From: Candidatus Campbellbacteria bacterium RIFOXYC2_FULL_35_25 | GTDB taxonomy: Bacteria > Patescibacteriota > Minisyncoccia > Phycocordibacterales > UBA12079 | NCBI GenBank assembly: GCA_001774495.1 | Contig: MFAE01000014.1 | Coordinates: forward strand, 10,573 to 74,572 | Reading direction: 5' to 3' | Length of the DNA: 64,000 nt | Part shown: one piece after another, positions 40,848 to 56,288 of the stretch | Numbering within the stretch: the stretch's first letter is position 1 | How the letters are laid out: each line of letters opens with the position of its first letter | Position numbers and translations under genes: made by a program | The notes under the pieces: generated by a model | Database searches by the model: none | Seen by the model: the letters and a program-made list of their open reading frames with translations, nothing else | What the model was told of the DNA's origin: nothing

Positions 40848-40977
40848 AAAAAAATGTTTAGCTGGAGCGGGGGATTAAAGAGAAAACCGTTGACATACAG
40901 GTCTGTTCTGTTACCATTAAGTCGATAGTTCTTAGGTAGTTTGCCTGTAATCTTTGGAAAAAAAGGAGGTGGTAAAA
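40848..40977 (+). promoter_or_regulatory. Promoter/leader cassette P1: G-rich box, TTGACA-16-TACCAT, conserved ~45-nt leader, SD AGGAGGTGGTAA
   Basis: tgtttagctggagcgggggattaaagagaaaaccgTTGACAtacaggtctgttctgtTACCATtaagtcgatagttcttaggtagtttgcctgtaatctttgg..aaggaggtggtaa. Confidence 0.6.
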
Positions 40978-41139
40978 GTGAAAGAGTTGTTGGGTAACAA
41001 CGGAGAAAGAGGAACCCCTTTCCTGTTAGGGTTTCTTGAGAAGATTGAGGTTCCACCAACTGGCTCAGCAAATTGCGCCACATATGTTGGAGCCACCCCA
41101 ACTCCAAGCGGAGACGCTTACGATTACGATCAAGATTAA
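40978..41139 (+). CDS. 53-aa small protein (GTG start) KELLGNNGERGTPFLLGFLEKIEVPPTGSANCATYVGATPTPSGDAYDYDQD
   Basis: Driven by cassette P1; SD 6 nt upstream; bidirectional terminator at ~41165-41215. Confidence 0.4.
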   Translation: MKELLGNNGERGTPFLLGFLEKIEVPPTGSANCATYVGATPTPSGDAYDYDQD

Positions 41140-46549: not shown

Positions 46550-46781
46550 ATTAAGAAAAAATAAATAAAAATTGTTTTTAAATTATAACATTATAATTTA
46601 AAAAACTAAAAAAAAGCAGGGGATTAGGGGTTATTTGGTTTCTAACTCCCAAAAACTGTTGTTGGTTTAGATTTCCTTTTATTTTAAAAAATTTCGGTTG
46701 GGGTGGGGTTATTGACTTTTCGCTTATAAAAGAGCATTTTCTAATTAGGTTGAACCTTTAATAATAGAGAGGAGGTTGGTG

Positions 46782-47423
46782 ATGTCACTAAAGGGAATAT
46801 TCATTGTAAGACATGCTGAGTCAGATGAAGATATTAATCCTAATTTAAATGGCGAAGTGGTAGACTCGGAGATATCTATCACCACGCTTGGTCAAAAGCA
46901 GGCTTTCGAAATAAAATCTCAACTCCAAAAAATCCTTCCAGTATTCAGAGGGTTGAGGGTTATTGTCTCTACGTCGAATCGAGCAATTGAAACAGCTAGA
47001 ATTTTAACTGAAGGATTTGTTGATGAGGGGAATAAGTATTATTCTTTCGAAAATTCGATACGGAACCTTAATTGGGGAGATGTTAATCAAACTAATGTTA
47101 GACAGATAGAAAAGGAGAGATATGAAGTGGGAGTTTTATTCTATAGTTTCCTTGGTGGGGACCATACTCCTGAGTATGTGAAAAACATCCAGTCTTTTAC
47201 CGACAGATGTCTAAAGGAAGGTTTGCAATCCAATCATCCAGAAGCATTACTGATTGTTGCTCATGGTTTTTCCATGAGAGTCATTGTGAAATGCTTTCTA
47301 GGTATGAGCGATGATGAATTCAAATGGCTAGCAAATCCCCACAACTGTTTTATTGTAAATCTTGCAGTGGATGGTGAACACATTAACCTTAAGACAAAGA
47401 TGCCTATCTATAAAGCAAGATAA
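46782..47423 (+). CDS. Histidine phosphatase superfamily (phosphoglycerate-mutase-like) protein
   Basis: IVRHAES (RHG-type) motif; preceded by the G-rich box ggttggggtggggttaTTGACT and SD gagaggagg. Confidence 0.65.
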   Translation: MSLKGIFIVRHAESDEDINPNLNGEVVDSEISITTLGQKQAFEIKSQLQKILPVFRGLRVIVSTSNRAIETARILTEGFVDEGNKYYSFENSIRNLNWGDVNQTNVRQIEKERYEVGVLFYSFLGGDHTPEYVKNIQSFTDRCLKEGLQSNHPEALLIVAHGFSMRVIVKCFLGMSDDEFKWLANPHNCFIVNLAVDGEHINLKTKMPIYKAR

Positions 47424-47484
47424 ATAATGGCGAAAAGCCTGTCTCTGGTTTCATTTAGAGCAGGCTTTTGTTATAATAATTTGT

Positions 47485-48015
47485 ATGAATAAATTAGATT
47501 TAGTACTTACAGACTTGTTAATATTTCCCACAAAAGAATATCCTAATCCAGAAAAATACGAAGAAAGAGTAACAGTAAAAGCGATTGTTGAGAACGGAGA
47601 AGGTAAAATTGCATTTGTTACAAATCCAGTACATGGATTTTATATTTTGCCTGGGGGTGGTGCCGAGTCAGACAATTTGATTGAAGAGGTTAAAAGAGAA
47701 TGTGATGAAGAAATAAATTGGGAAGTTGCTGAAGTTGCTGAAGTTGCAAGCATAGAAGAGTTTAGAAATAGAAATGCTAAACATTACATGACATATTGTT
47801 ATAGTGCAAAACCTACTAAAGAACTTCCTAGTGACACAAGAACTGATGACGAAAAAGAAAATGGACTTGAGGTTGTTTGGTTAGAAAAAAATGAGGCTAT
47901 TAAAAAATTATTGTCACAGACAGAATCTCTTAAAAGAGGTGAGGTAGAATTTTATAATACAGGATTTAACATACTTAGAGATTGCATGTTTCTACAGAAG
48001 TACTTAGATAATTAA
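47485..48015 (+). CDS. NUDIX hydrolase
   Basis: Nudix box GGGAESDNLIEEVKRECDEEI. Confidence 0.7.
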   Translation: MNKLDLVLTDLLIFPTKEYPNPEKYEERVTVKAIVENGEGKIAFVTNPVHGFYILPGGGAESDNLIEEVKRECDEEINWEVAEVAEVASIEEFRNRNAKHYMTYCYSAKPTKELPSDTRTDDEKENGLEVVWLEKNEAIKKLLSQTESLKRGEVEFYNTGFNILRDCMFLQKYLDN

Positions 48016-48016
48016 T

Positions 48017-49033
48017 TTATTTTTTGATAAAGTCTATAATAGTTTTAGTGACCTCTCTCTCTAAGTCTGGTTTTTCGTAAACTCTTTTCCAAGAGCTGTT
48101 GTTTTGTTTGTAGTGAAAGCTAGATTTTTCTAGAGTATATTGCCCTAGACATAAACATTGGAATTCAAATAAGTAAAACTTGCCATCTCTATAGCCAATA
48201 TCTAAAGACATAAACGGGGTGTTAAATTTCTCATATATTTTCTTTGAATAGTCCAACAAACCTTTTGGTGGAGTTATTTCAAAATTTAATTTACCACTCC
48301 CACTAGCTCTGAAATCATCTTTTCTATTTTCTCTGTACACACAGTAATATTTATCTCCATAGGCTAAAATCCTATAATCACCTTTTAAATCTGGTATAAA
48401 ATTTTGAATAATAAATTTACATCGATTATTAGACATAGGAGTGTATCTTCTACCTGTTTTAATTTTGGAGACCCACAATTTAAAATTTTCAAAAGTAAAA
48501 GACCTCGATATTTTATGGGCATATTTTCTCTTTTTTGATTGAGTATTTAGAAGTTCGATATTAGAACTTCTTGTTCCAGATCCAGGTTTAATTATTGTTA
48601 ATTTATTGGATTTGAATAGGTCACTTTTAGAATATTCTTCAAAGGTACCAAAACCTCGTGATTGTATATTTTTAATTTCATCAATATTCATAGAATCGCG
48701 AAGTATCTCCATAAAAACCTTGTTATGATGTGCTCTAAAATATGGAAAATTTGGAATAAGTTTTGCACCCTGTAATTCTAGAGCTAATACAATATCTTCT
48801 ATGTAACTTTTATATAGTAGATTAGGATCTTCTGACGATTGGTATAGTACCCATTCATTAGTGTAATTCTCTGTTCGGAAGTTTATTTCATGGAAATTTT
48901 TAATAATTAGGTCAAAACCAGCTTTTTTGAAATTAGCTTTAAGTTTATTAATATCTATACAAGCACCACGATATCGAGTTGAGAAATAAAACTGATCTCG
49001 GTAGTCTATTAGTAAGTAAATTTTATTATTCAT
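48017..49033 (-). CDS. ATP-grasp fold ligase-like protein
   Basis: LTIIKPGSGTRSSNIEL, FIIQNFIPDLKGDYRILAYGDKYYCV, FMSLDIGYRDGKFYLFEFQ. Confidence 0.45.
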   Translation of the reverse strand: MNNKIYLLIDYRDQFYFSTRYRGACIDINKLKANFKKAGFDLIIKNFHEINFRTENYTNEWVLYQSSEDPNLLYKSYIEDIVLALELQGAKLIPNFPYFRAHHNKVFMEILRDSMNIDEIKNIQSRGFGTFEEYSKSDLFKSNKLTIIKPGSGTRSSNIELLNTQSKKRKYAHKISRSFTFENFKLWVSKIKTGRRYTPMSNNRCKFIIQNFIPDLKGDYRILAYGDKYYCVYRENRKDDFRASGSGKLNFEITPPKGLLDYSKKIYEKFNTPFMSLDIGYRDGKFYLFEFQCLCLGQYTLEKSSFHYKQNNSSWKRVYEKPDLEREVTKTIIDFIKK

Positions 49034-49069
49034 ATGAATAATAAAACTTTACCCATAATAAAGCTCTTT

Positions 49070-49171
49070 GTCTAGTAAAATCGTTGACAGATTAAGCAAC
49101 TTTGTTACTATTAAGTTGATAGCTCTTAGGTAGTTTGTCTGTAATCTTTTGAAAGAAAGGAGGTGGTAAGA
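49070..49171 (+). promoter_or_regulatory. Promoter/leader cassette P2 (TTGACA, conserved leader, AGGAGGTGGTAA)
   Basis: tcgTTGACAgattaagcaactttgttactattaagttgatagctcttaggtagtttgtctgtaatcttttg..aggaggtggtaag. Confidence 0.55.
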
Positions 49172-49240
49172 ATGTCTGGTAACGGTGGAAACCATCAAGG
49201 TGGTGGAACTGGAGGGGGCGGCGGCGGCCGGAAGCAGTAA
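49172..49240 (+). CDS. 22-aa glycine-rich peptide MSGNGGNHQGGGTGGGGGGRKQ
   Basis: ATG 7 nt after the cassette SD; hairpin and T-run downstream; C39-like peptidase gene follows. Confidence 0.35.
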   Translation: MSGNGGNHQGGGTGGGGGGRKQ

Positions 49241-49298
49241 CCTTCGGTTTTTTCTAAAAGGGGTGGCTGTTGCCACTCCCTTTTTATATAATAAAGAC

Positions 49299-49940
49299 AT
49301 GAAAAAAATACCATTTTATTCTAATTTAAAAGATAATAATCATTGCATCCAAGCTTGTTTGAAGATGGTTATTAAGTATTACTTTCCAGCAAAAAATTAC
49401 TCTTTTAAAGAGTTAGACAAAATGTCAAAACATAAAAAAGGAATGTGGACTTGGCAGGGAGCTTCTTTGCTCGCTCTCGCAGATATGGGTCTTGAAGTTG
49501 TAAATATTGAAAATATAGATTACAAAAAATTTGCTGAGCAGGGGGAAATGTATTTACAAAATATTTGGAGTGAAGAGGTTTTTGCAACACAAGATAAATA
49601 TTCAGATTTAAAGCAAGAAAAGAAAATTGCACAAAAAATGGTTGAGAGTAAAAAAATGAAATTGGCAAATAGGGATGCAAAATTTTCTGATGTTGAGGGT
49701 TATTTTGCCAAGGATTATTTGGTTTTAGTTTCTGTGAATCCTTGTGTTTTTGAAAATAAAAAGTGTTATTGGAGTCACATTGTTTTAATTACCGATATAA
49801 ATGACCGCTGGGTCACATTTCATGATGTCGGTTTACCTCCTGTCGAAAATAGAAAAATCAGTAGAAAAATTTTTGAAAAAGCGATGACTAAACCTTGGAA
49901 AGAGGACACTAATGTCATTGCTTTAAAATATGAAAAATAA
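49299..49940 (+). CDS. Papain-like cysteine peptidase, C39-like (bacteriocin-processing type) domain protein
   Basis: NNHCIQACLKMVIKYY (Cys nucleophile context) and HIVLITDINDRWVTFHDVG (His context); tool start at 49185 lies upstream of the likely ATG at 49299. Confidence 0.45.
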   Translation: MKKIPFYSNLKDNNHCIQACLKMVIKYYFPAKNYSFKELDKMSKHKKGMWTWQGASLLALADMGLEVVNIENIDYKKFAEQGEMYLQNIWSEEVFATQDKYSDLKQEKKIAQKMVESKKMKLANRDAKFSDVEGYFAKDYLVLVSVNPCVFENKKCYWSHIVLITDINDRWVTFHDVGLPPVENRKISRKIFEKAMTKPWKEDTNVIALKYEK

Positions 49941-49982: not shown

Positions 49983-50110
49983 AAAAAATGTTTAGCTAGG
50001 GTGGGTGATTATGCAAAACCGTTGACATACAGGTCTGTTCTGTTACCATTAAGTCGATAGTTCTTGGGCAGTTTTCTTTAATCTCTTGTGAAGAAAAGGA
50101 GGTGGTAATA
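49983..50110 (+). promoter_or_regulatory. Promoter/leader cassette P3 (G-rich box, TTGACA-16-TACCAT, leader, SD)
   Basis: tgtttagctagggtgggtgatt..ccgTTGACAtacaggtctgttctgtTACCATtaagtcgatagttcttgggcag..aaggaggtggtaa. Confidence 0.6.
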
Positions 50111-50302
50111 GTGGGTTGGTTTACTGGAAACAGTGACGATGGATCAAAGGTGAAGGTTACGGATTCTGGGGATACTCACAAGACGGAAAAGATATCTTCC
50201 TCTGACCGTCCTCATTCTCATGACATCGTGAAGATTGATAAGCCCTCAGGATCTGTGAAGGAAATAAGTATTGGGCCTAATGCTTCACGAAGAGGCAAGT
50301 AA
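50111..50302 (+). CDS. 63-aa hydrophilic small protein (GTG start)
   Basis: Driven by cassette P3; hairpin terminator gacacagccctcacggctgtgtt. Confidence 0.35.
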   Translation: MGWFTGNSDDGSKVKVTDSGDTHKTEKISSSDRPHSHDIVKIDKPSGSVKEISIGPNASRRGK

Positions 50303-50410: not shown

Positions 50411-51637
50411 ATGAAAGCCCCATTCCAAAAAAAAGACAATGACTTATATGTCGTTAATTTCCCTCAAAAAACCAAGGATATTTTTTTTGATATTTATCTG
50501 AGAACTGGTTATTCTGAAGAATCAAATAATGAGTTTGGTATTGGCCATTTGCTAGAACATTATTTGGTAGAATCTCTAACTGATAATATGAAATTTGTTA
50601 ATGGTTCTACTGGACAAGATTTTACCAATTATTATTTACAGTCAGATTCTAAAAGAATAGTAAAAGATGTTAAAATTTTTTTGAATACTATTTTAAATTC
50701 AAATTTTAGCGACGAGAAATTATTTAAAAGAGAAAAAGAAGTAATTGAAAATGAAATTCGCAACAAAAAAAATATTAAAGAAGAATCTCTTAATTTTATT
50801 TTAAAAAAATTTTTTGGTAGTAATTTCCCCTACGCTAGAGAAAAAGTAAATCAAATTTCAAATATTAAAAAATTCAAATTTGGCGATATTAAGAAACACC
50901 ATAATAAGATTTTTTGTAGCGGAAATATTTTTTTTGTTCTTTCTGGTTTTAATATTGATGGGAAAATGGAAAATAATATTTTAAATATTATTAAAGAACA
51001 TAAACTTGCTAAAATTAAAAAAAATAAAAGAATAGAGTATTCTTTTTCGGGGGAAAAGTTTGTTAAAAACTCAAAATATTACTGGAATGACGAATTGATA
51101 GTTAATGTTTCTTTTGATTTTTCGAAGAAAATTAGAAAAAATACAAAAAACATAAAAGCTATAAACATGCTTAGAAAATATTTTGAAGATTTAGATTTTT
51201 ATTGTGCAAAAAATATGAGAGATTTGGGGATCTACTCTAGTTCTTTCGAATGGATGATTTGGGATAACGCGGGAATAGTTATTTTGTCTTCTATGTTAAA
51301 TGGAGGGAAGGCGAATATTATTTTGGGAGAGTTTTTAAAATTTTTAGAAAAAGTTAAAAAAGATGGAATTTCAAATGGCGATTTAGTCAAATTGAGGAGA
51401 AAAGAAAAAGAGGGGCTTACCAAAGCCTTCGGGAATAATGCAAGAAGATTAAGTTGGGTTGTAAATGATTTGCTCTCCTATGGCGATGTGACTTTATTAA
51501 AAGATGATATTAAAGAATTAAAGAGTATTGATTCCAATTATATAAAAAAAATTGCTAAAAAACTTTTTGATTTTGATAAGATGAATATAACTATCTTAGG
51601 AAAGGATGCTGGAAAGACTAAAATTAAACTGGACTAA
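50411..51637 (+). CDS. M16-family zinc peptidase
   Basis: HLLEH (HxxEH). Confidence 0.6.
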   Translation: MKAPFQKKDNDLYVVNFPQKTKDIFFDIYLRTGYSEESNNEFGIGHLLEHYLVESLTDNMKFVNGSTGQDFTNYYLQSDSKRIVKDVKIFLNTILNSNFSDEKLFKREKEVIENEIRNKKNIKEESLNFILKKFFGSNFPYAREKVNQISNIKKFKFGDIKKHHNKIFCSGNIFFVLSGFNIDGKMENNILNIIKEHKLAKIKKNKRIEYSFSGEKFVKNSKYYWNDELIVNVSFDFSKKIRKNTKNIKAINMLRKYFEDLDFYCAKNMRDLGIYSSSFEWMIWDNAGIVILSSMLNGGKANIILGEFLKFLEKVKKDGISNGDLVKLRRKEKEGLTKAFGNNARRLSWVVNDLLSYGDVTLLKDDIKELKSIDSNYIKKIAKKLFDFDKMNITILGKDAGKTKIKLD

Positions 51638-51654
51638 ATAATTTTAATTATATT

Positions 51655-51796
51655 TTTAAAAATGCTTGGTTGGAGTGGGGTATTAAAGAGAAAACCGTTG
51701 ACACAAGTAGTCGTTTTGTTATTATTAATGGGATAGTACTTTGTTTTTCGGTTCTAATTTTACAATTGGATATTTCCAAAAAAGGAGGTGGTGATC
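51655..51796 (+). promoter_or_regulatory. Promoter/leader cassette P4 (G-rich box, TTGACA, longer leader, SD aaggaggtggtga)
   Basis: tgcttggttggagtggggtattaaagagaaaaccgTTGACAcaagtag... Confidence 0.55.
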
Positions 51797-51959
51797 TGTG
51801 AATATCCCCGAAATAATGGTAACGGGTATTAACCCAGGTAAAAAACCCACTGGCTTTTATCTTGATGTTTCGCAAGGTTATAATGAATGTGAAAATGATA
51901 ATTGCGGTGGCGGTTTTGGGGATTGCTCTGATTGTGGAGCTGATCCAGATCCAAACTAA
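51797..51959 (+). pseudogene. Cysteine-rich small peptide gene with an apparent frameshift at the A-run at 51899-51901. The GTG-initiated frame stops at 51929-51931; the Cys-rich end (NCGGGFGDCSDCGADPDPN) is in the adjacent frame.
   Basis: Removing one A from gataaattgc would give the continuous 53-aa product NIPEIMVTGINPGKKPTGFYLDVSQGYNECENDNCGGGFGDCSDCGADPDPN; a sequencing error or a genuine frameshift. Confidence 0.3.
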
Positions 51960-52072: not shown

Positions 52073-52696
52073 ATGAAATTTAATATATATTATTCCATTG
52101 ATTTTGATGTTGATCGGGTCTTAGAAACTATAAATAAATTTGAATGGTTTAAATCCAATAATTATAGTGTAATTTTACCTAAATACCTTGATTTATCTGA
52201 TATAAAAAAAATAACAAAAGAGGATGTCAAAAAAGTAATACTAAAAGAATATAACGAGCAAGATTATTTAAAACAAAAAGAGTATTTAGAAAATAATTTA
52301 GAAAAGTTGATATTAAATGAAAATATTGAAGAAAAAATTAAAAGCACAACCCTTGTTTTATCAAAAGACTATAATATCTATTTTACAAAATATGGTGTTG
52401 GTGGGAGTTACCATTTGCCAAATAAAATAGTAATAAACATAAATCGTTGTTTCGAATTTGGTTTACTTAGGACGATAATTCATGAAATTATTCATCTCTC
52501 AATCCAGCTTTTTGTTGAAAAATATAATATTAATCATTGGACAAAAGAAAGATTGGTTGATTTGTTATTTGATAAATTTGCTCCCAAAATAAATAAAATT
52601 CAAACGATTTCTATTGATACAAATTTAATTGATGAAAGTTTTGAAAAAAATTATCCAAATGTAGAAAAAATAATAAGTGAGATAAGAGAAAAATAG
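52073..52696 (+). CDS. HExxH motif protein (putative metallopeptidase)
   Basis: RTIIHEIIHLSIQ. Confidence 0.4.
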   Translation: MKFNIYYSIDFDVDRVLETINKFEWFKSNNYSVILPKYLDLSDIKKITKEDVKKVILKEYNEQDYLKQKEYLENNLEKLILNENIEEKIKSTTLVLSKDYNIYFTKYGVGGSYHLPNKIVININRCFEFGLLRTIIHEIIHLSIQLFVEKYNINHWTKERLVDLLFDKFAPKINKIQTISIDTNLIDESFEKNYPNVEKIISEIREK

Positions 52697-52861: not shown

Positions 52862-53908
52862 ATGACTGCTATAAGAAAAGTAGATCAAAACAATGAAATT
52901 ATTCCCCGCTCCGCTTGGATAACAGTTAATCGTGCTTGCAATTTTCGTTGTAGCGGATGCTATGCTAAAAATACAGGGTATGGTTTAAAGCAAAGCATGA
53001 GTTTTGAACTTTCAAAAAAGATCGCAAACCTTGTTTCATCGTTAGGGATTTCAAGAATTACAATAATTGGAGGAGAACCTACTTTATGGAATAATTTATC
53101 TAATTTCAATAAATTTTGTATAGATAAAGGTTTGCAAACTAGAATTGTTACAAATGCAATGAGATTTGGAGATGATAATTTTTGGTTAGATTATACAAAA
53201 AGCCCAAATACAAGAGCCGGAGTATCTATAAAAGCTTTTGATAAGAAAAGCTTAAAGGATATTACGGGAATTGATTCATTTGAATTTGTTAAAAAAGGTT
53301 TGCAGAGAGCTATTTCACATTTTAAATGTGGGGTTAGCACTGTTTATTCTACAACTTCGGCTAGTCATATACTTAATATTACTAAATTCGCTATGGATTG
53401 TGGGGCAAAAAGTATAAGTATAAGCCCTTGTACGCCAAGATTTTGTAATGGAAAAGTAGACGGCGCTTATGTTGTAGAGCCAGTAGCAATGACAAAACAT
53501 CTTATTAAAATCTATCCAAAACTTGTTGAGATCACTAATGGTAATATTGTATTTTTAATGAAATTACCTCTGTGTTTGTGGCCGGATGATTTTGTTAAAA
53601 ATCTAATAGAGGAAAATCAAATTAACACTATTTGCCAATTACAACATAGGAGTGGCATTATTTTTGATGTTGATGGAAAACTTATGTTATGTAATAGTCT
53701 TTTCGATTACCCTGTTGGTAAATATGGGGTTGATTTTTTTAACAAAAAATCGTTAATTGCTTTATTAAACAACCGGAAGACTCTTGATGTTTATGATAGG
53801 TTAACATCTTATCCATCAAAAAAATGTATGAATTGTAATCGTTACGATGTTTGTGCCGGTGGATGTCCTTTATTTTGGGCTCTTTTTGACCCAGAAAGTT
53901 TAATTTAA
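52862..53908 (+). CDS. Radical SAM enzyme with C-terminal SPASM-like cysteine cluster
   Basis: CNFRCSGCY, IIGGEPTL, C-terminal CMNCNRYDVCAGGCP. Confidence 0.75.
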   Translation: MTAIRKVDQNNEIIPRSAWITVNRACNFRCSGCYAKNTGYGLKQSMSFELSKKIANLVSSLGISRITIIGGEPTLWNNLSNFNKFCIDKGLQTRIVTNAMRFGDDNFWLDYTKSPNTRAGVSIKAFDKKSLKDITGIDSFEFVKKGLQRAISHFKCGVSTVYSTTSASHILNITKFAMDCGAKSISISPCTPRFCNGKVDGAYVVEPVAMTKHLIKIYPKLVEITNGNIVFLMKLPLCLWPDDFVKNLIEENQINTICQLQHRSGIIFDVDGKLMLCNSLFDYPVGKYGVDFFNKKSLIALLNNRKTLDVYDRLTSYPSKKCMNCNRYDVCAGGCPLFWALFDPESLI

Positions 53909-54011: not shown

Positions 54012-56288
54012 ATGTCAGATAAAAATATTTTTAGAATAGGGAAGGGGCTTGTTGGGCTTTGGATAATCATAACCGTTGTTTTTTCTTTTTTTGTGATGAT
54101 GGGTTTTTTTGTAAGTATTCCCCAAGCTTCGATGGATCCTAAACACGAGATATTTGTCGCTCAGGAAAGAATAGATAAAGAGTTTCCTAATTCCGTCCAT
54201 CCTATACCTTTTGTGATATTAGGGGAAAATGGGGAAGACGTGCTTACAAAAGATGTTTTAGCAGAACTATACGAGAAGAGTCAGTCTTTAAGAGTCTCTG
54301 AATTAGGAAAAGAATATTTAAATGATTTTGCTCTTCCATTTTTGGGGAACACAGGGACTTTGGGATTATTTTCTCTCGCAGATATCACAGAATCTTTTTT
54401 AAACAAACAAGGTTCTTCATTAAAAGAAGCCACAGACGGTGAGGTAAAAAATGCTATTAGCATTTTGTTGGAAGACCCTCAGTACGGGAGTTTTCTTCAA
54501 GCTCAATTATCGAGTGAGGCTGAGTTTAAAAACGGAGAATGGCTTTCTCCCACTCTCGCTTTTTTTGTTAGTGCTAATAATGAGAAATTGGGTGGAGGGG
54601 TTTTTAGACGGACAGTTGGTGGTGACGAGGTCATGTTAGAAAAAGAAGAGTTTAACAGAAAGATAGAAGCTTCTCTCCAAGGAGAAAATTATAAACTTTT
54701 AGGGATCGGGATTGATCTCAATATTGAATCTGAAGAAGAGGGATATTCTCCTTCAATTTTAATTTTAATTTCTACGCTTTTGTTTACCTTGGCTATTTTT
54801 ACAGGCGTTCTATTTTCATCATTTCGTCTATTTTTACTCACTATGTTTGGTTTGCTCAGTGTTTTCATTTGGGTGAGAGGTTTTCCTCTTGCTACCTTTG
54901 GTTTGGTGAAGCCGTCTCTGACTACTGATGTAATTCTTCCAATCGCATTTATGTCGTTTGGTGTTGATTTTTTAATTCATGTCGTTCACCAGTACAAAGA
55001 AAAGTTAAAAACTTCTAGCCAGGGTTTTGAAAAATCTTTTATAGAGTCGTTTAGAAAAGTAAATCTAGCCCTTTTCTTGGCGATGTTTACTACCGCGATA
55101 GCTTTTGCTGCTAATTATGTTTCTAGTGTTGAGGCGGTTAAGGCTTTTGCGATAACGGGTTTCTTTGCTTCATTTGCTTCTTATTTCATTATGGGAATGA
55201 TTATTCCTTTTTTGTTTGCACTTTGGGAAAAAGATAAAACAAGCTCTAAAAGCTATCAACTAAAAACTAAAAACTATTTTAATATGGGAGCTTTAATGAA
55301 CTCTGTAATAAAAAATAAAAGCTTTGTCGTTATTTTATTATTTATAGCAACAGTTTTCTTTGGTTCAAATGTGTTCTTGGTAGAAAAAAGTCTTGATCCT
55401 ATAGATTTCATAAATTCAGAATCTAATTTTGTCGTCAGCTTAGACCAGCGTGATATTCATTATGGTGATACTCGGGGGGAAGAGGCTTCAATTTATATTA
55501 AAGGAAATTTCACTGATGCCAAGGTTCAAAGAGCGTTAGAAGATATTTTGGTTTTATTAAACAATAATTCTTATTTAGCTCATACTAAAGAAGGACAGTT
55601 GGTTTTGCCTTATGGTCTTCCAGAGGTCAACAAAATTGATGAGGAAACCTATTCTGAGAGAATTATTTTTGAAGTTATAGGAACAAGAGAGCAAAAGACA
55701 GTGAAGGAAGCTTTTGCAAGTTTAGAGTCAGACTTAAAAGTCTTTGACGGGATTGCTTCTTACGAGATAGTCGGGTCTCCATTTACAAGAGACGCCAGCT
55801 TAGAGGCTGTTACTGATTCATTGATAAGTACAATTATTACAGCATTGTTAATAATCTTTCTCGTTCTTTTGATTGTATTTCGCTCTTTCTTCTACGCCAT
55901 TATTACTCTTATTCCTATGCTTTTGGTTGTTGTTTGGATTTATGGATTAATGGGAATTTTTAATCTTTCACTCAATTTTATTACAGCCACCGTCGCAGCG
56001 GTTTCTTTGGGAGTGGGGATTGATTATTCAGTTCACCTCGTTCAGAGATTCAGACAAGAATACAAAAAAGAGATTTCTTTTGAAGAGACCCTAATGAGAG
56101 TTGGAAAGACAACAGGGTTTGCTCTTTTTGTTTCCGCTTTATCTAGTACTATTGGCTTTATGTTTCTTGCTCAAGCTCAAATGCCACTTTTTGCAACTTA
56201 TGGATTATTAGCAACTGCGATGATAATTTTTTCTTTCTTTGCTACTTTTTTTGTTCTCCCTCTTCTCCTCGCTTTAAAAAAGAAATAA
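54012..56288 (+). CDS. MMPL/RND-superfamily membrane transporter (two 6-TM bundles, 758 aa)
   Basis: Duplicated polytopic hydrophobic blocks separated by large soluble loops. Confidence 0.55.
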   Translation: MSDKNIFRIGKGLVGLWIIITVVFSFFVMMGFFVSIPQASMDPKHEIFVAQERIDKEFPNSVHPIPFVILGENGEDVLTKDVLAELYEKSQSLRVSELGKEYLNDFALPFLGNTGTLGLFSLADITESFLNKQGSSLKEATDGEVKNAISILLEDPQYGSFLQAQLSSEAEFKNGEWLSPTLAFFVSANNEKLGGGVFRRTVGGDEVMLEKEEFNRKIEASLQGENYKLLGIGIDLNIESEEEGYSPSILILISTLLFTLAIFTGVLFSSFRLFLLTMFGLLSVFIWVRGFPLATFGLVKPSLTTDVILPIAFMSFGVDFLIHVVHQYKEKLKTSSQGFEKSFIESFRKVNLALFLAMFTTAIAFAANYVSSVEAVKAFAITGFFASFASYFIMGMIIPFLFALWEKDKTSSKSYQLKTKNYFNMGALMNSVIKNKSFVVILLFIATVFFGSNVFLVEKSLDPIDFINSESNFVVSLDQRDIHYGDTRGEEASIYIKGNFTDAKVQRALEDILVLLNNNSYLAHTKEGQLVLPYGLPEVNKIDEETYSERIIFEVIGTREQKTVKEAFASLESDLKVFDGIASYEIVGSPFTRDASLEAVTDSLISTIITALLIIFLVLLIVFRSFFYAIITLIPMLLVVVWIYGLMGIFNLSLNFITATVAAVSLGVGIDYSVHLVQRFRQEYKKEISFEETLMRVGKTTGFALFVSALSSTIGFMFLAQAQMPLFATYGLLATAMIIFSFFATFFVLPLLLALKKK

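What the first reader, a model, noticed from the sequence alone, without database searches (positions are those of the whole stretch)
48017..49940. Divergent ATP-grasp-like gene, cassette-driven 22-aa Gly-rich peptide, then C39-like cysteine peptidase
On the plus strand, cassette P2 drives MSGNGGNHQGGGTGGGGGGRKQ (49172..49240). It is followed by a terminator-like hairpin and then a ~214-aa protein with NNHCIQACLKMV and HIVLITDINDRW...HDVG motifs typical of C39 bacteriocin-leader peptidases, which cleave after Gly-Gly. On the minus strand, diverging from the same intergenic region, is a 338-aa ATP-grasp-like ligase. Peptide, GG-type protease and ATP-grasp together make another precursor-maturation module. 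The peptide itself is almost entirely Gly.
Basis: partly seen in the sequence, partly recalled or inferred. Interest (0 to 1): 0.65.

Follow-up and report, generated by a model that had tools for sequence, protein, structure and literature searches.

The report
Glycine-rich micro-gene paired with cysteine peptidase
A 22-codon, glycine-rich gene sits just upstream of a stand-alone C39-like cysteine peptidase gene in this groundwater CPR bacterium and in at least 17 related genomes, so the two form a real but uncharacterised gene pair, while the neighbouring ATP-grasp gene belongs to a different cluster.

Summary
A repeated promoter/5'UTR cassette (49074..49171) drives the ORF MSGNGGNHQGGGTGGGGGGRKQ (49172..49240). 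A terminator follows (49260..49279), then a 213-aa papain-fold protein (49299..49940) with a conserved Cys16-His160-Asp176 triad. Its nearest relatives are C39/DUF3335 peptidases.

The micro-ORF is a real gene:
- It lies 52-106 nt upstream of the peptidase homologue in 18 of 22 non-redundant loci where that homologue is at least 44% identical.
- Among seven close variants, differences fall 225:31:27 on codon positions 3:1:2.
- Every locus has a strong ribosome-binding site before the ORF and a terminator hairpin of different sequence after it.
- No peptidase gene has a ribosome-binding site.

The 338-aa divergent gene has an ATP-grasp fold (RimK/LysX-like). It is never found beside other copies of the pair. 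Its own family travels with, or is fused to, a NUDIX hydrolase plus a histidine phosphatase, and both of those flank it here.

Best reading (confidence about 0.45, inferred): a self-contained two-gene unit in which an abundant glycine-rich peptide is the substrate of a scarce Gly-Gly-type cysteine peptidase. It has no canonical leader, transporter or modifying enzyme, so it is a new variant of a known kind. No description was found in the searched paper library. Function is untested.

The parts
49074..49171 (+). Promoter plus 5'UTR cassette: -35 TTGACA 49084..49089, TG-extended -10 TACTAT 49106..49111, Shine-Dalgarno AAAGGAGGTGGT 49156..49167
   Evidence: One of four paralogous copies in the window. 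A related cassette precedes the Gly ORF in L026 (nhmmer E 1.5e-9). No supported RNA structure in the UTR.
49172..49240 (+). Gly-rich micro-ORF, 22 aa: MSGNGGNHQGGGTGGGGGGRKQ
   Evidence: Present upstream of the peptidase homologue in 18 of 22 non-redundant loci with at least 44% identity. Coding signature: 192 synonymous against 36 non-synonymous codon differences, and 225/31/27 differences at codon positions 3/1/2. Only Gly-rich small ORF in the window.
49260..49289 (+). Intrinsic terminator: GC-rich hairpin 49260..49279 followed by a T-run
   Evidence: A hairpin of 9-16 bp and different sequence occupies the same position in 18/18 loci. No alternative antiterminator fold is predicted.
49299..49940 (+). 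Stand-alone C39-like (clan CA, papain-fold) cysteine peptidase, 213 aa. Putative triad Cys16, His160, Asp176. No Shine-Dalgarno.
   Evidence: Pfam C39 E 2.6e-4 and DUF3335 E 2e-3, both just below the curated cut-offs. Family-wide Pfam hits. AF2 pLDDT 94.6. Foldseek hits to PeiR, PCAT1, ComA and LahT. Residue conservation. 0 of 19 homologous genes have an SD.
48017..49033 (-). ATP-grasp ligase (RimK/LysX-like fold). Adjacent and divergent, but judged NOT to belong to the peptide-peptidase pair. It belongs with NUDIX 47485..48015 and His_Phos_1 46776..47423.
   Evidence: AF2 pLDDT 89.9. Foldseek hits to ArgX/LysX/RimK, E 1e-13 to 1e-11. Absent from all other C39-like loci. NUDIX fusion P0120. 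Conserved His_Phos_1/NUDIX/ATP-grasp/AsnB context.

Best explanation
The finding is a self-contained two-gene unit found in Paceibacteria-type CPR bacteria. A strong promoter and a near-perfect ribosome-binding site produce large amounts of a 22-46-aa peptide. That peptide is glycine-rich, free of hydrophobic residues, and has a basic tail. An intrinsic terminator directly after its stop codon lets only a fraction of transcripts continue into the next gene. That gene has no ribosome-binding site and encodes a cytoplasmic, stand-alone C39-like cysteine peptidase.

The most likely relationship is substrate and enzyme. The peptidase would use its Cys16-His160-Asp176 triad to cut the peptide at one of its Gly-Gly sites. 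The most plausible cuts either remove the short polar or basic tail that follows the last Gly-Gly (RKQ, KDGK, RGK, DRGK, RRGK), or separate the N-terminal MSGNGG from the His-containing remainder.

Shown: the anatomy, the conservation of the pair, the coding status of the micro-ORF, the fold and conserved triad of the enzyme, and the exclusion of the ATP-grasp.

Inferred: that the peptide is the substrate, where it is cut, and what the product does.
For: - Strict adjacency and shared orientation in 18 of 22 non-redundant loci, spanning 44-79% enzyme identity, with no third conserved gene.
- The pair also occurs as a unit inside a phage-like contig carrying HNH, terminase small subunit and ParB-methylase genes. 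This argues that it is self-sufficient.
- Amino-acid-level purifying selection acts on the peptide, including its non-Gly residues S2, N4, N7 and H8.
- The expression design is conserved: SD before the ORF, a terminator after it in 18/18 loci, and no SD on the enzyme gene in 0/19. This is the arrangement that, from established knowledge of lantibiotic and bacteriocin operons, gives an excess of precursor over processing enzyme.
- The enzyme family has an intact, conserved catalytic triad: C16 in 87% of sequences at 88% occupancy, H160 in 99%, D176 in 88%.
- Its nearest structural relatives cleave after Gly-Gly (PCAT1, ComA, LahT), and the peptide is full of Gly-Gly.
- In the same window, two sister cassettes are also followed by a small ORF, a terminator and a peptidase-like gene: M16 at 50411..51637 and an HExxH protein at 52073..52696.
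Against: - There is no direct evidence of cleavage.
- The peptide lacks the amphipathic hydrophobic leader (positions -4, -7, -12) that characterised C39 domains require (PMC10885120). Recognition would therefore have to differ.
- There is no exporter, signal peptide or modifying enzyme, so no obvious fate for a product.
- Foldseek TM-scores are only about 0.5. Equally close structural neighbours are not leader peptidases: pseudomurein isopeptidase PeiR, phytochelatin synthase, amide synthase CtaG and AziU2/U3.
- Four loci with close enzyme homologues lack the ORF (L007, L030, L036, L047). All homologues at or below about 40% identity also lack it. The enzyme can therefore exist without this peptide.
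Confidence: 0.45

Rival explanations
1. The two genes are conserved neighbours but not substrate and enzyme. The Gly-rich peptide is an abundant stand-alone small protein, for example a disordered stress-protective, nucleic-acid-binding or antimicrobial peptide. The peptidase acts on other substrates, and adjacency reflects shared regulation only.
For: The terminator makes the peptide gene a transcription unit of its own. The enzyme family (840 clusters at 50% identity) is much wider than the clade that carries the ORF. Four close homologues lack the ORF. Several variants resemble KGG-type Gly/Lys-rich repeats (L045, L042).
Against: Twenty of 22 Gly-rich small ORFs in 428 kb lie at exactly this position. 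The enzyme gene starts 10-35 nt after the terminator and has no SD in 0/19 loci, so its expression looks dependent on the upstream unit. The pair moves together into a phage-like contig.
Confidence: 0.2
2. The peptide regulates or inhibits the peptidase. It would act as a pro-region or inhibitor supplied in trans, in the manner of staphostatin/staphopain or a toxin-antitoxin pair. An excess of Gly-rich peptide would occupy the active-site cleft and hold a potentially harmful cytoplasmic protease in check.
For: The design gives a large excess of peptide over enzyme. The small gene lies upstream of the larger one, as in many type II toxin-antitoxin pairs. The unit occurs on a phage-like element. 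Staphopain-staphostatin complexes appear among weak structural matches (ranks 44-45). From established knowledge, staphostatins rely on a Gly at P1.
Against: A 22-aa disordered poly-Gly peptide would not be expected to bind tightly. Toxin-antitoxin pairs are normally co-transcribed without an intervening terminator. PADLOC models gave no hit. Close enzyme homologues survive without the ORF (L007, L030, L047).
Confidence: 0.15
3. The ORF is a transcription-attenuation leader peptide that senses glycyl-tRNA supply. Ribosome stalling in the Gly run would control read-through of the terminator into the peptidase gene.
For: The ORF is short, has 6-7 consecutive codons for one amino acid, is followed at 5-38 nt by an intrinsic terminator, and sits immediately upstream of a gene with no SD.
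Against: In all 18 loci the terminator hairpin stays in the minimum-energy fold when the RNA covered by a ribosome stalled mid-ORF or at the last Gly codon is masked. No antiterminator is therefore predicted. Non-Gly residues are conserved through synonymous changes, which a mere sensor does not need. Distant variants are only 38-47% Gly. The same cassette drives non-Gly small ORFs followed by terminators elsewhere in the window. The downstream gene is not a glycine biosynthesis or transport gene.
Confidence: 0.08
4. This is the first reader's model: a three-part RiPP module in which the divergent ATP-grasp ligase modifies the Gly-rich peptide and the C39-like peptidase removes a leader.
For: The ATP-grasp fold is confirmed. 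Its closest structures (ArgX/LysX, RimK) ligate amino acids onto the C-termini of small proteins. The genes are divergent across one 138-nt intergenic region. An unrelated MvdD-type ATP-grasp lies 2-4 kb from the pair in L028, L037 and L048.
Against: This ATP-grasp is absent from every other locus with the pair. Its homologues sit in His_Phos_1/NUDIX/ATP-grasp/AsnB clusters with no C39-like gene and are fused to NUDIX. The peptide has no Asp or Glu for graspetide cross-links (sequence). BLASTP finds no similarity between the window ATP-grasp and the MvdD-type ones.
Confidence: 0.06

Closest known systems
Peptidase family C39: double-glycine leader peptidase domains of PCAT/AMS transporters (ComA, PCAT1, LahT)
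   Same: Papain-type fold. The Cys...His-16 residues-Asp arrangement (C16, H160, D176) is the same as I recall for ComA. The motif around the Cys (HCxQACLKM) is similar. Pfam C39 hits occur in 20 of 23 family members. A small Gly-Gly-containing peptide gene lies next to it.
   Different: The protein is a stand-alone 213 aa with no ABC transporter. It carries an insert of roughly 65 residues, mostly helical, between the Cys and His. The window protein scores just below the Pfam cut-off (21.3 against 22 bits). The peptide has no hydrophobic amphipathic leader, which C39 domains such as LahT150 need (PMC10885120). No exporter is conserved nearby.
Pfam DUF3335 (PF11814) and Peptidase_C39_2 (PF13529): uncharacterised stand-alone C39-like papain-fold families
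   Same: Single-domain proteins of about 200 aa. All 23 close family members hit DUF3335, and 12 hit C39_2. These families sit in the same papain-like cluster as C39 (PMC10318531).
   Different: Scores are below the curated cut-off for the window protein (18.1 against 25 bits). According to PMC10318531, DUF3335 members are often fused to GNAT domains. That paper and the four literature searches run here turned up no association with a Gly-rich micro-ORF.
Precursor gene, leaky terminator, processing-enzyme layout of lantibiotic and bacteriocin operons
   Same: A small, highly expressed peptide gene is followed by a hairpin terminator and then the processing gene. The comparison with those operons rests on my own knowledge.
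   Different: There is no modifying enzyme, immunity gene or transporter. The peptide is 55% Gly, has no recognisable leader/core division, and is too short (22 aa) for the usual architecture.
Other papain-fold enzymes that use the triad for transfer or isopeptide chemistry: phytochelatin synthase (C83), pseudomurein endoisopeptidase PeiR (C71), amide synthase CtaG
   Same: They are as close structurally as the C39 domains (Foldseek E 1.6e-5 to 3e-3, TM about 0.5).
   Different: There is no sequence-level family match and no glutathione, pseudomurein or thioamide pathway context. They are listed because they keep open a transpeptidase reading rather than a hydrolase one.

Membership tests
Peptidase C39 (double-glycine leader peptidase) | Papain-type fold with a Cys-His-Asp catalytic triad | tested here: met
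   AF2 pLDDT 94.6. Foldseek hits to PCAT1, ComA and LahT peptidase domains, E 3e-5 to 1e-3. C16, H160 and D176 conserved in 144 representatives. Triad geometry in the model could not be inspected.
Peptidase C39 (double-glycine leader peptidase) | Score at or above the Pfam PF03412 gathering threshold | tested here: not met
   21.3 bits against a cut-off of 22 for the window protein. Twenty of 23 close homologues hit at E<0.01, best 1.4e-7. Borderline.
Peptidase C39 (double-glycine leader peptidase) | N-terminal domain of, or encoded next to, an ABC exporter (PCAT/AMS) | tested here: not met
   The family is made of stand-alone proteins of about 210 aa. No conserved transporter neighbour. The ABC protein beside L008 is a two-ATPase-domain type with no membrane domain.
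Peptidase C39 (double-glycine leader peptidase) | Substrate leader with hydrophobic residues at -4, -7 and -12 ahead of GG/GA/GS (PMC10885120) | tested here: not met
   The window peptide contains no L, I, V, F, W or Y. The other 17 variants have at most one or two such residues. Gly-Gly itself is abundant.
Peptidase C39 (double-glycine leader peptidase) | Cleavage after Gly-Gly | not testable with these tools
   Needs an enzyme assay with the synthetic peptide.
RiPP biosynthetic gene cluster | Small precursor gene adjacent to and co-conserved with a processing enzyme | tested here: met
   18 of 22 non-redundant loci.
RiPP biosynthetic gene cluster | A class-defining modifying enzyme conserved with the precursor | tested here: not met
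   No third gene is conserved. The commonest neighbour families occur in at most 4 of about 20 loci.
Graspetide (ATP-grasp-modified RiPP) | ATP-grasp ligase co-conserved with the precursor | tested here: not met
   The window ATP-grasp is absent from all other loci and is linked to NUDIX instead.
Graspetide (ATP-grasp-modified RiPP) | Core with Asp/Glu plus Ser/Thr/Lys for side-chain macrocycles (PMC8939145) | tested here: not met
   MSGNGGNHQGGGTGGGGGGRKQ has no Asp or Glu (sequence).
ATP-grasp superfamily (for the 338-aa protein) | ATP-grasp fold | tested here: met
   AF2 pLDDT 89.9. 445 PDB matches at E<=1e-3, led by ArgX/LysX, synapsin, RimK, DcsG and Ddl. Pfam and NCBIfam give only sub-threshold hits.
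Leader-peptide transcription attenuator | Alternative antiterminator structure that replaces the terminator when the ribosome stalls | tested here: not met
   The terminator is retained (91-100% of pairs) in 18/18 loci under both ribosome-masking schemes.
Leader-peptide transcription attenuator | Short ORF enriched in one amino acid, followed by an intrinsic terminator | tested here: met

The most novel reading that the evidence does not exclude
The pair may be a minimal peptide-conjugation system. The papain-fold enzyme would form a thioester with the oligoglycine peptide at a Gly-Gly, releasing the short basic tail much as ubiquitin-like precursors are trimmed. It would then transfer the Gly-rich peptide to an amine on a protein, cell-wall precursor or small molecule. 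In that case a ribosomally made oligoglycine serves as a tag or donor in CPR bacteria and their phages. The evidence does not exclude this. Structural neighbours include transpeptidase and acyl-transfer enzymes (phytochelatin synthase, CtaG). Thirteen of 19 variants end 3-4 residues after their last Gly-Gly, and six carry R-G-G there.
Probability: 0.07. Interest if true: 0.9.

Novelty: new variant of a known kind. Interest (0 to 1): 0.55.

Why it matters
CPR (Patescibacteria) bacteria have tiny genomes and mostly unknown biology, and genes of 22 codons are invisible to standard gene callers. This work identifies such a gene with clear comparative evidence that it is translated and selected. 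It is tied to one enzyme partner, and the pair is compact enough to test directly with one synthetic peptide and one recombinant protein. If the peptidase acts on a leaderless, hydrophobic-free oligoglycine peptide, that would extend the known substrate logic of C39-like enzymes. It would also give a first functional handle on a family of about 840 sequence clusters that currently has no assigned role. The analysis also corrects a tempting mis-assignment: the ATP-grasp belongs to a separate NUDIX-linked cluster that is itself uncharacterised.

Tried and rejected
- Sequence search of PDB chains with the peptidase profile and with the ATP-grasp gave only noise.
- NCBIfam, PADLOC and PHROGs had no model for the peptide, the peptidase or the ATP-grasp.
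- A profile of 18 Gly-rich peptides searched against the protein collection gave 4 non-significant hits. The sequences are too short and of too low complexity, and most such ORFs are never called as genes.
- The cassette 5'UTR was tested as a structured regulatory RNA. The consensus fold energy was -0.17 kcal/mol with no covariation, so this was rejected. Rfam found only tRNAs in the window.
- I tested whether the peptidase gene has its own -10 box and makes a leaderless mRNA. Nine of 19 loci have a -10-like hexamer, against 38 of 113 background ORFs. This is not distinguishable from background and was dropped.
- The attenuation model was tested by masking ribosome-covered RNA. No antiterminator appeared.
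- A search for a conserved third gene by clustering all neighbour ORFs and by Pfam counts found none.
- Four literature searches found no description of this pair.
- A scan of viral contigs for the back-translated MSGNGGNH motif found nothing.
Full report
**Source and anatomy**

The window is low-GC (32.7%). Exact copies of the peptidase lie on groundwater metagenome contigs, and its closest named relatives come from Candidatus Pacebacteria/Paceibacterota MAGs. The organism is therefore a CPR (Patescibacteria) bacterium.

The finding's interval contains the following features:
- A 338-aa ORF on the minus strand, 48017..49033.
- A 138-nt intergenic region.
- On the plus strand, a sigma-70-type promoter: TTGACA, 16 nt, TG-extended TACTAT, at 49084..49111.
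- A 5'UTR of about 55 nt that ends in AAAGGAGGTGGT (49156..49167).
- The ORF ATG 49172..TAA 49240, encoding MSGNGGNHQGGGTGGGGGGRKQ.
- An 8-bp GC-rich hairpin with a T-run, 49260..49279.
- ATG 49299..49940, encoding a 213-aa protein.

The promoter and UTR form one of four paralogous cassettes in the window (40889, 49083, 50021, 51697). The search pattern gave 4 matches against 0 expected. Each cassette is followed by a small ORF and a terminator.

**The peptidase**

Pfam gives sub-threshold hits:
- Peptidase_C39: E 2.6e-4, 21.3 bits against a cut-off of 22. It covers the Cys region, residues 11-78.
- DUF3335: E 2e-3. It covers the His region, residues 110-179.

Among 23 homologues at 50-79% identity, all hit DUF3335, 20 hit C39 and 12 hit C39_2.

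An AlphaFold2 model built from that alignment is confident (pLDDT 94.6, pTM 0.91). Foldseek against the PDB returned these matches:
- Pseudomurein endoisopeptidase PeiR (E 1.6e-5).
- The peptidase domains of PCAT1, ComA and the LahT-type double-glycine protease (E 3e-5 to 1e-3).
- AziU2/U3, CtaG, cyanobacterial phytochelatin synthase, and a Bacillus 'C39-like' protein.

All have TM-scores of about 0.5. This places the protein in clan CA, near C39, but in no characterised family.

A profile search of 1.84 billion representatives found 840 clusters at E<=1e-3 and 162 at E<=1e-30. Almost all are stand-alone proteins of about 210 aa. In 144 of the best-matching representatives:
- Cys16 of the H-C motif is present wherever the N-terminus is covered (87% at 88% occupancy).
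- His160 is present in 99%.
- Asp176 is present in 88%.

Cys20, which the 'QAC' motif might suggest, is variable. The His-to-Asp spacing of 16 equals what I recall for ComA. The Cys-to-His distance is about 65 residues longer because of a mostly helical insert. The family therefore looks catalytically active.

**The micro-ORF is a real gene and the peptidase's only conserved partner**

I fetched 66 loci around peptidase homologues from genome and metagenome collections.

Among non-redundant loci whose homologue is at least 44% identical and which have enough upstream sequence, 18 of 22 carry a Gly-rich ORF of 22-46 aa. It lies on the same strand, 52-106 nt upstream. The exceptions are:
- L007, which keeps the hairpin.
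- L030.
- L036, whose peptidase gene looks frameshifted.
- L047.

Homologues at or below about 40% identity lack the ORF. These come from Saccharibacteria, Microgenomates and others. L013 has only a 16-aa MSKKKGSKVRGGTRGR.

Across 428 kb of loci, on both strands, only 22 ORFs of 14-70 aa have at least 38% Gly, and 20 of them are at this position.

Seven variants share MSGNGGNH-x-GGG-x-GGGGGG. Over 19 codons they differ as follows:
- 225 differences at third positions, against 31 at first and 27 at second positions.
- 192 synonymous against 36 non-synonymous codon differences.
- The non-synonymous changes are confined to three codons.
- Ser, Asn and His codons also vary synonymously.

The constraint is therefore on the peptide and not merely on a (GGN)n nucleic-acid repeat.

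More distant variants keep three features:
- A G-x-H-G / S-P-H-G element.
- A Gly run.
- A basic C-terminus such as ...RGGDRGK, ...RGGRRGK or ...GGPRGK.

Hydrophobic residues are essentially absent.

Clustering all neighbouring ORFs, and counting Pfam families among 92 neighbours, showed no third conserved gene. The commonest families reach only 4 loci: a 7TM histidine kinase directly upstream, NUDIX, and methyltransferases.

One copy of the pair (L040/L041/L076) lies in an IMG/VR viral contig. That contig carries HNH endonuclease, phrog_98, ParB-methyltransferase, terminase small subunit and GroES/GroEL genes. The two genes therefore behave as a portable unit.

**Expression design**

The following features are shared across loci:
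- Most loci have an AGGAGG-type ribosome-binding site at the right distance before the micro-ORF.
- In 18 of 18 loci a 9-16-bp hairpin of unrelated sequence lies 5-38 nt after the stop codon, usually with a T-run.
- The peptidase start codon follows within about 10-35 nt of that hairpin.
- None of 19 peptidase genes has a recognisable Shine-Dalgarno.

Structure is thus conserved while sequence is not. The design predicts much more peptide than enzyme. From established knowledge, this is the arrangement seen in lantibiotic and bacteriocin operons with a leaky terminator after the precursor gene.

I tested the obvious alternative, a glycine-sensing attenuator. I masked the RNA a stalled ribosome would cover and refolded the rest. 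The terminator stayed in the minimum-energy structure in all 18 loci, so no antiterminator is predicted. The cassette UTR has no supported structure.

**The ATP-grasp gene is real but belongs elsewhere**

Pfam and NCBIfam give only weak hints (GSH-S_ATP E 0.035). An AlphaFold2 model (pLDDT 89.9) matches ArgX/LysX, synapsin, RimK, DcsG, D-Ala-D-Ala ligase and PsnB at E 1e-13 to 1e-10. It has an ATP-grasp fold of the RimK/LysX kind.

Three lines of evidence separate it from the pair:
- tblastn found it beside the peptidase only in contigs identical to the window (L001-L006). It was in none of the other 66 loci.
- Its own family has more than 1,300 hits. About ten of the top 120 are 520-aa fusions with a NUDIX domain.
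- The fusion P0120 is 46% identical over its N-terminal part to the window's NUDIX gene (47485..48015). It is 51% identical over the rest to the ATP-grasp.

I looked up four homologues. In P0029, P0041 and P0060 the order is His_Phos_1, NUDIX, ATP-grasp. An AsnB-like amidotransferase follows in P0029 and P0060, and the P0041 contig ends before that position. P0082 has only the AsnB-like neighbour. No C39-like gene is present in any of the four.

The window has the same His_Phos_1 (46776..47423) and NUDIX genes, with the ATP-grasp inverted.

An unrelated MvdD-type ATP-grasp occurs 2-4 kb from the pair in three loci. However, the window peptide has no Asp or Glu, so graspetide chemistry (PMC8939145) cannot apply.

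**Mechanism**

The best-supported reading is a two-gene substrate-enzyme unit. An abundant, disordered, Gly-rich peptide would be cut at a Gly-Gly by a scarce C39-like cysteine peptidase.

The cut site is not known. In 13 of 19 variants the last Gly-Gly is followed by a 3-4-residue polar or basic tail, which would suit C-terminal trimming. A conserved His shortly after an early Gly-Gly would suit N-terminal trimming.

Recognition cannot follow the canonical rule. Characterised C39 domains need hydrophobic leader residues at -4, -7 and -12 (PMC10885120), and these peptides have none. The extra helical insert may replace that function, but this is inference.

I put this reading at about 0.45. 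The rivals are:
- Mere co-regulated neighbours: 0.20.
- Peptide as inhibitor or antitoxin-like partner: 0.15.
- Attenuator: 0.08.
- The three-part ATP-grasp RiPP: 0.06.

A conjugation or transpeptidation reading is not excluded, because phytochelatin synthase and CtaG are equally close folds. I give it about 0.07.

**Comparison with known systems, and novelty**

The pair resembles the precursor plus double-glycine-peptidase logic. It fails several defining features of C39/PCAT systems:
- No transporter.
- No leader.
- Sub-threshold Pfam score.

It also fails the defining features of RiPP clusters (no modifying enzyme) and of graspetides.

NCBIfam, PADLOC and PHROGs have no model for either gene. 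The one paper that mentions DUF3335 describes it only as an uncharacterised papain-like family, often fused to GNAT domains (PMC10318531). Four literature searches found no description of a Gly-rich micro-ORF paired with such a peptidase.

I classify it as a new variant of a known kind. Interest is moderate (0.55). The comparative evidence is strong and the system is easy to test, but the function is still inferred.

Noticed in passing
window 40889..41139, 50021..50302, 51697..51959: Three more copies of the same promoter/5'UTR cassette each drive a small ORF (53, 63 and 53 aa) followed by a terminator. Two are followed by peptidase-like genes: M16 at 50411..51637, and a 207-aa protein with an HEIIH motif at 52073..52696, which is followed in turn by rSAM/SPASM at 52862..53908 and MMPL at 54012..56288. 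The ORFs of cassettes 1-3 share an N-terminal G-N-x-G element. The cassette-3 ORF ends in RRGK, like Gly-peptides of other loci.
   Followed up: partly
window 46776..49033: His_Phos_1, NUDIX and a RimK/LysX-like ATP-grasp form a cluster conserved in Paceibacteria. An AsnB-like amidotransferase is often present, and NUDIX and ATP-grasp are sometimes fused. In the window the ATP-grasp is inverted relative to NUDIX, with the two stop codons one base apart. The function of the cluster is unknown.
   Followed up: partly
L040 5843..6630 (same as L041 and L076 2607..3403): One copy of the Gly-peptide/C39-like pair lies in a predicted viral contig (IMG/VR). That contig carries HNH endonuclease, phrog_98, ParB-methyltransferase, terminase small subunit and GroES/GroEL genes.
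   Followed up: partly
L017, L019, L020, L057, L060 (directly downstream of the C39-like gene); L007, L034, L036 (within about 1 kb): NUDIX hydrolase genes recur next to C39-like homologues in Saccharibacteria and Paceibacteria loci. The window also has a NUDIX gene 1.3 kb away. I did not test whether this exceeds the high background of NUDIX genes in CPR genomes.
   Followed up: no
L008 3763..5439, L010 4054..5748, L034 3919..5583, L048 3207..4835: A 7TM-receptor histidine kinase (HisKA_7TM, HisKA, HATPase_c) lies directly upstream of the Gly-rich ORF in four non-redundant loci. It may be a regulator, or it may simply reflect shared gene order.
   Followed up: no
L028 3006..3926, L037 8877..9836, L048 162..1157: An MvdD-type (graspetide-like) ATP-grasp lies 2-4 kb from the pair in three loci. 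It is unrelated by BLASTP to the window's ATP-grasp.
   Followed up: partly
L034 6724..7311, L037 6717..7328, L010 2486..3070: A second, divergent C39-like paralogue (36-40% identity to the query) sits in tandem with the first, or a few kb away. It has no Gly-rich ORF of its own.
   Followed up: no
L007 5900..6001: The closest non-identical relative (79% identity) has lost the Gly-rich ORF but keeps the terminator hairpin and the TATAAT-ATG junction. Its peptidase gene follows an rSAM/SPASM gene and is followed by a homologue of the window's 207-aa HExxH protein.
   Followed up: partly
P0258 (400 aa) and P0146 (272 aa): P0258 fuses an unrelated N-terminal domain of about 190 aa to the C39-like domain. 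P0146 is a gene call that starts with MGKSGGQGSGNAG, so the Gly-rich ORF appears to have been merged with the peptidase ORF by the gene caller or by a frameshift.
   Followed up: no
window 49185..49940 and 49049..49300 (minus strand): A 251-aa in-frame upstream extension of the peptidase ORF exists, and one database entry (P0001) calls it at 246 aa. An 83-aa antisense ORF also overlaps the micro-ORF. Both are probably artefacts, because homologues align from MKKIPFY onward.
   Followed up: yes
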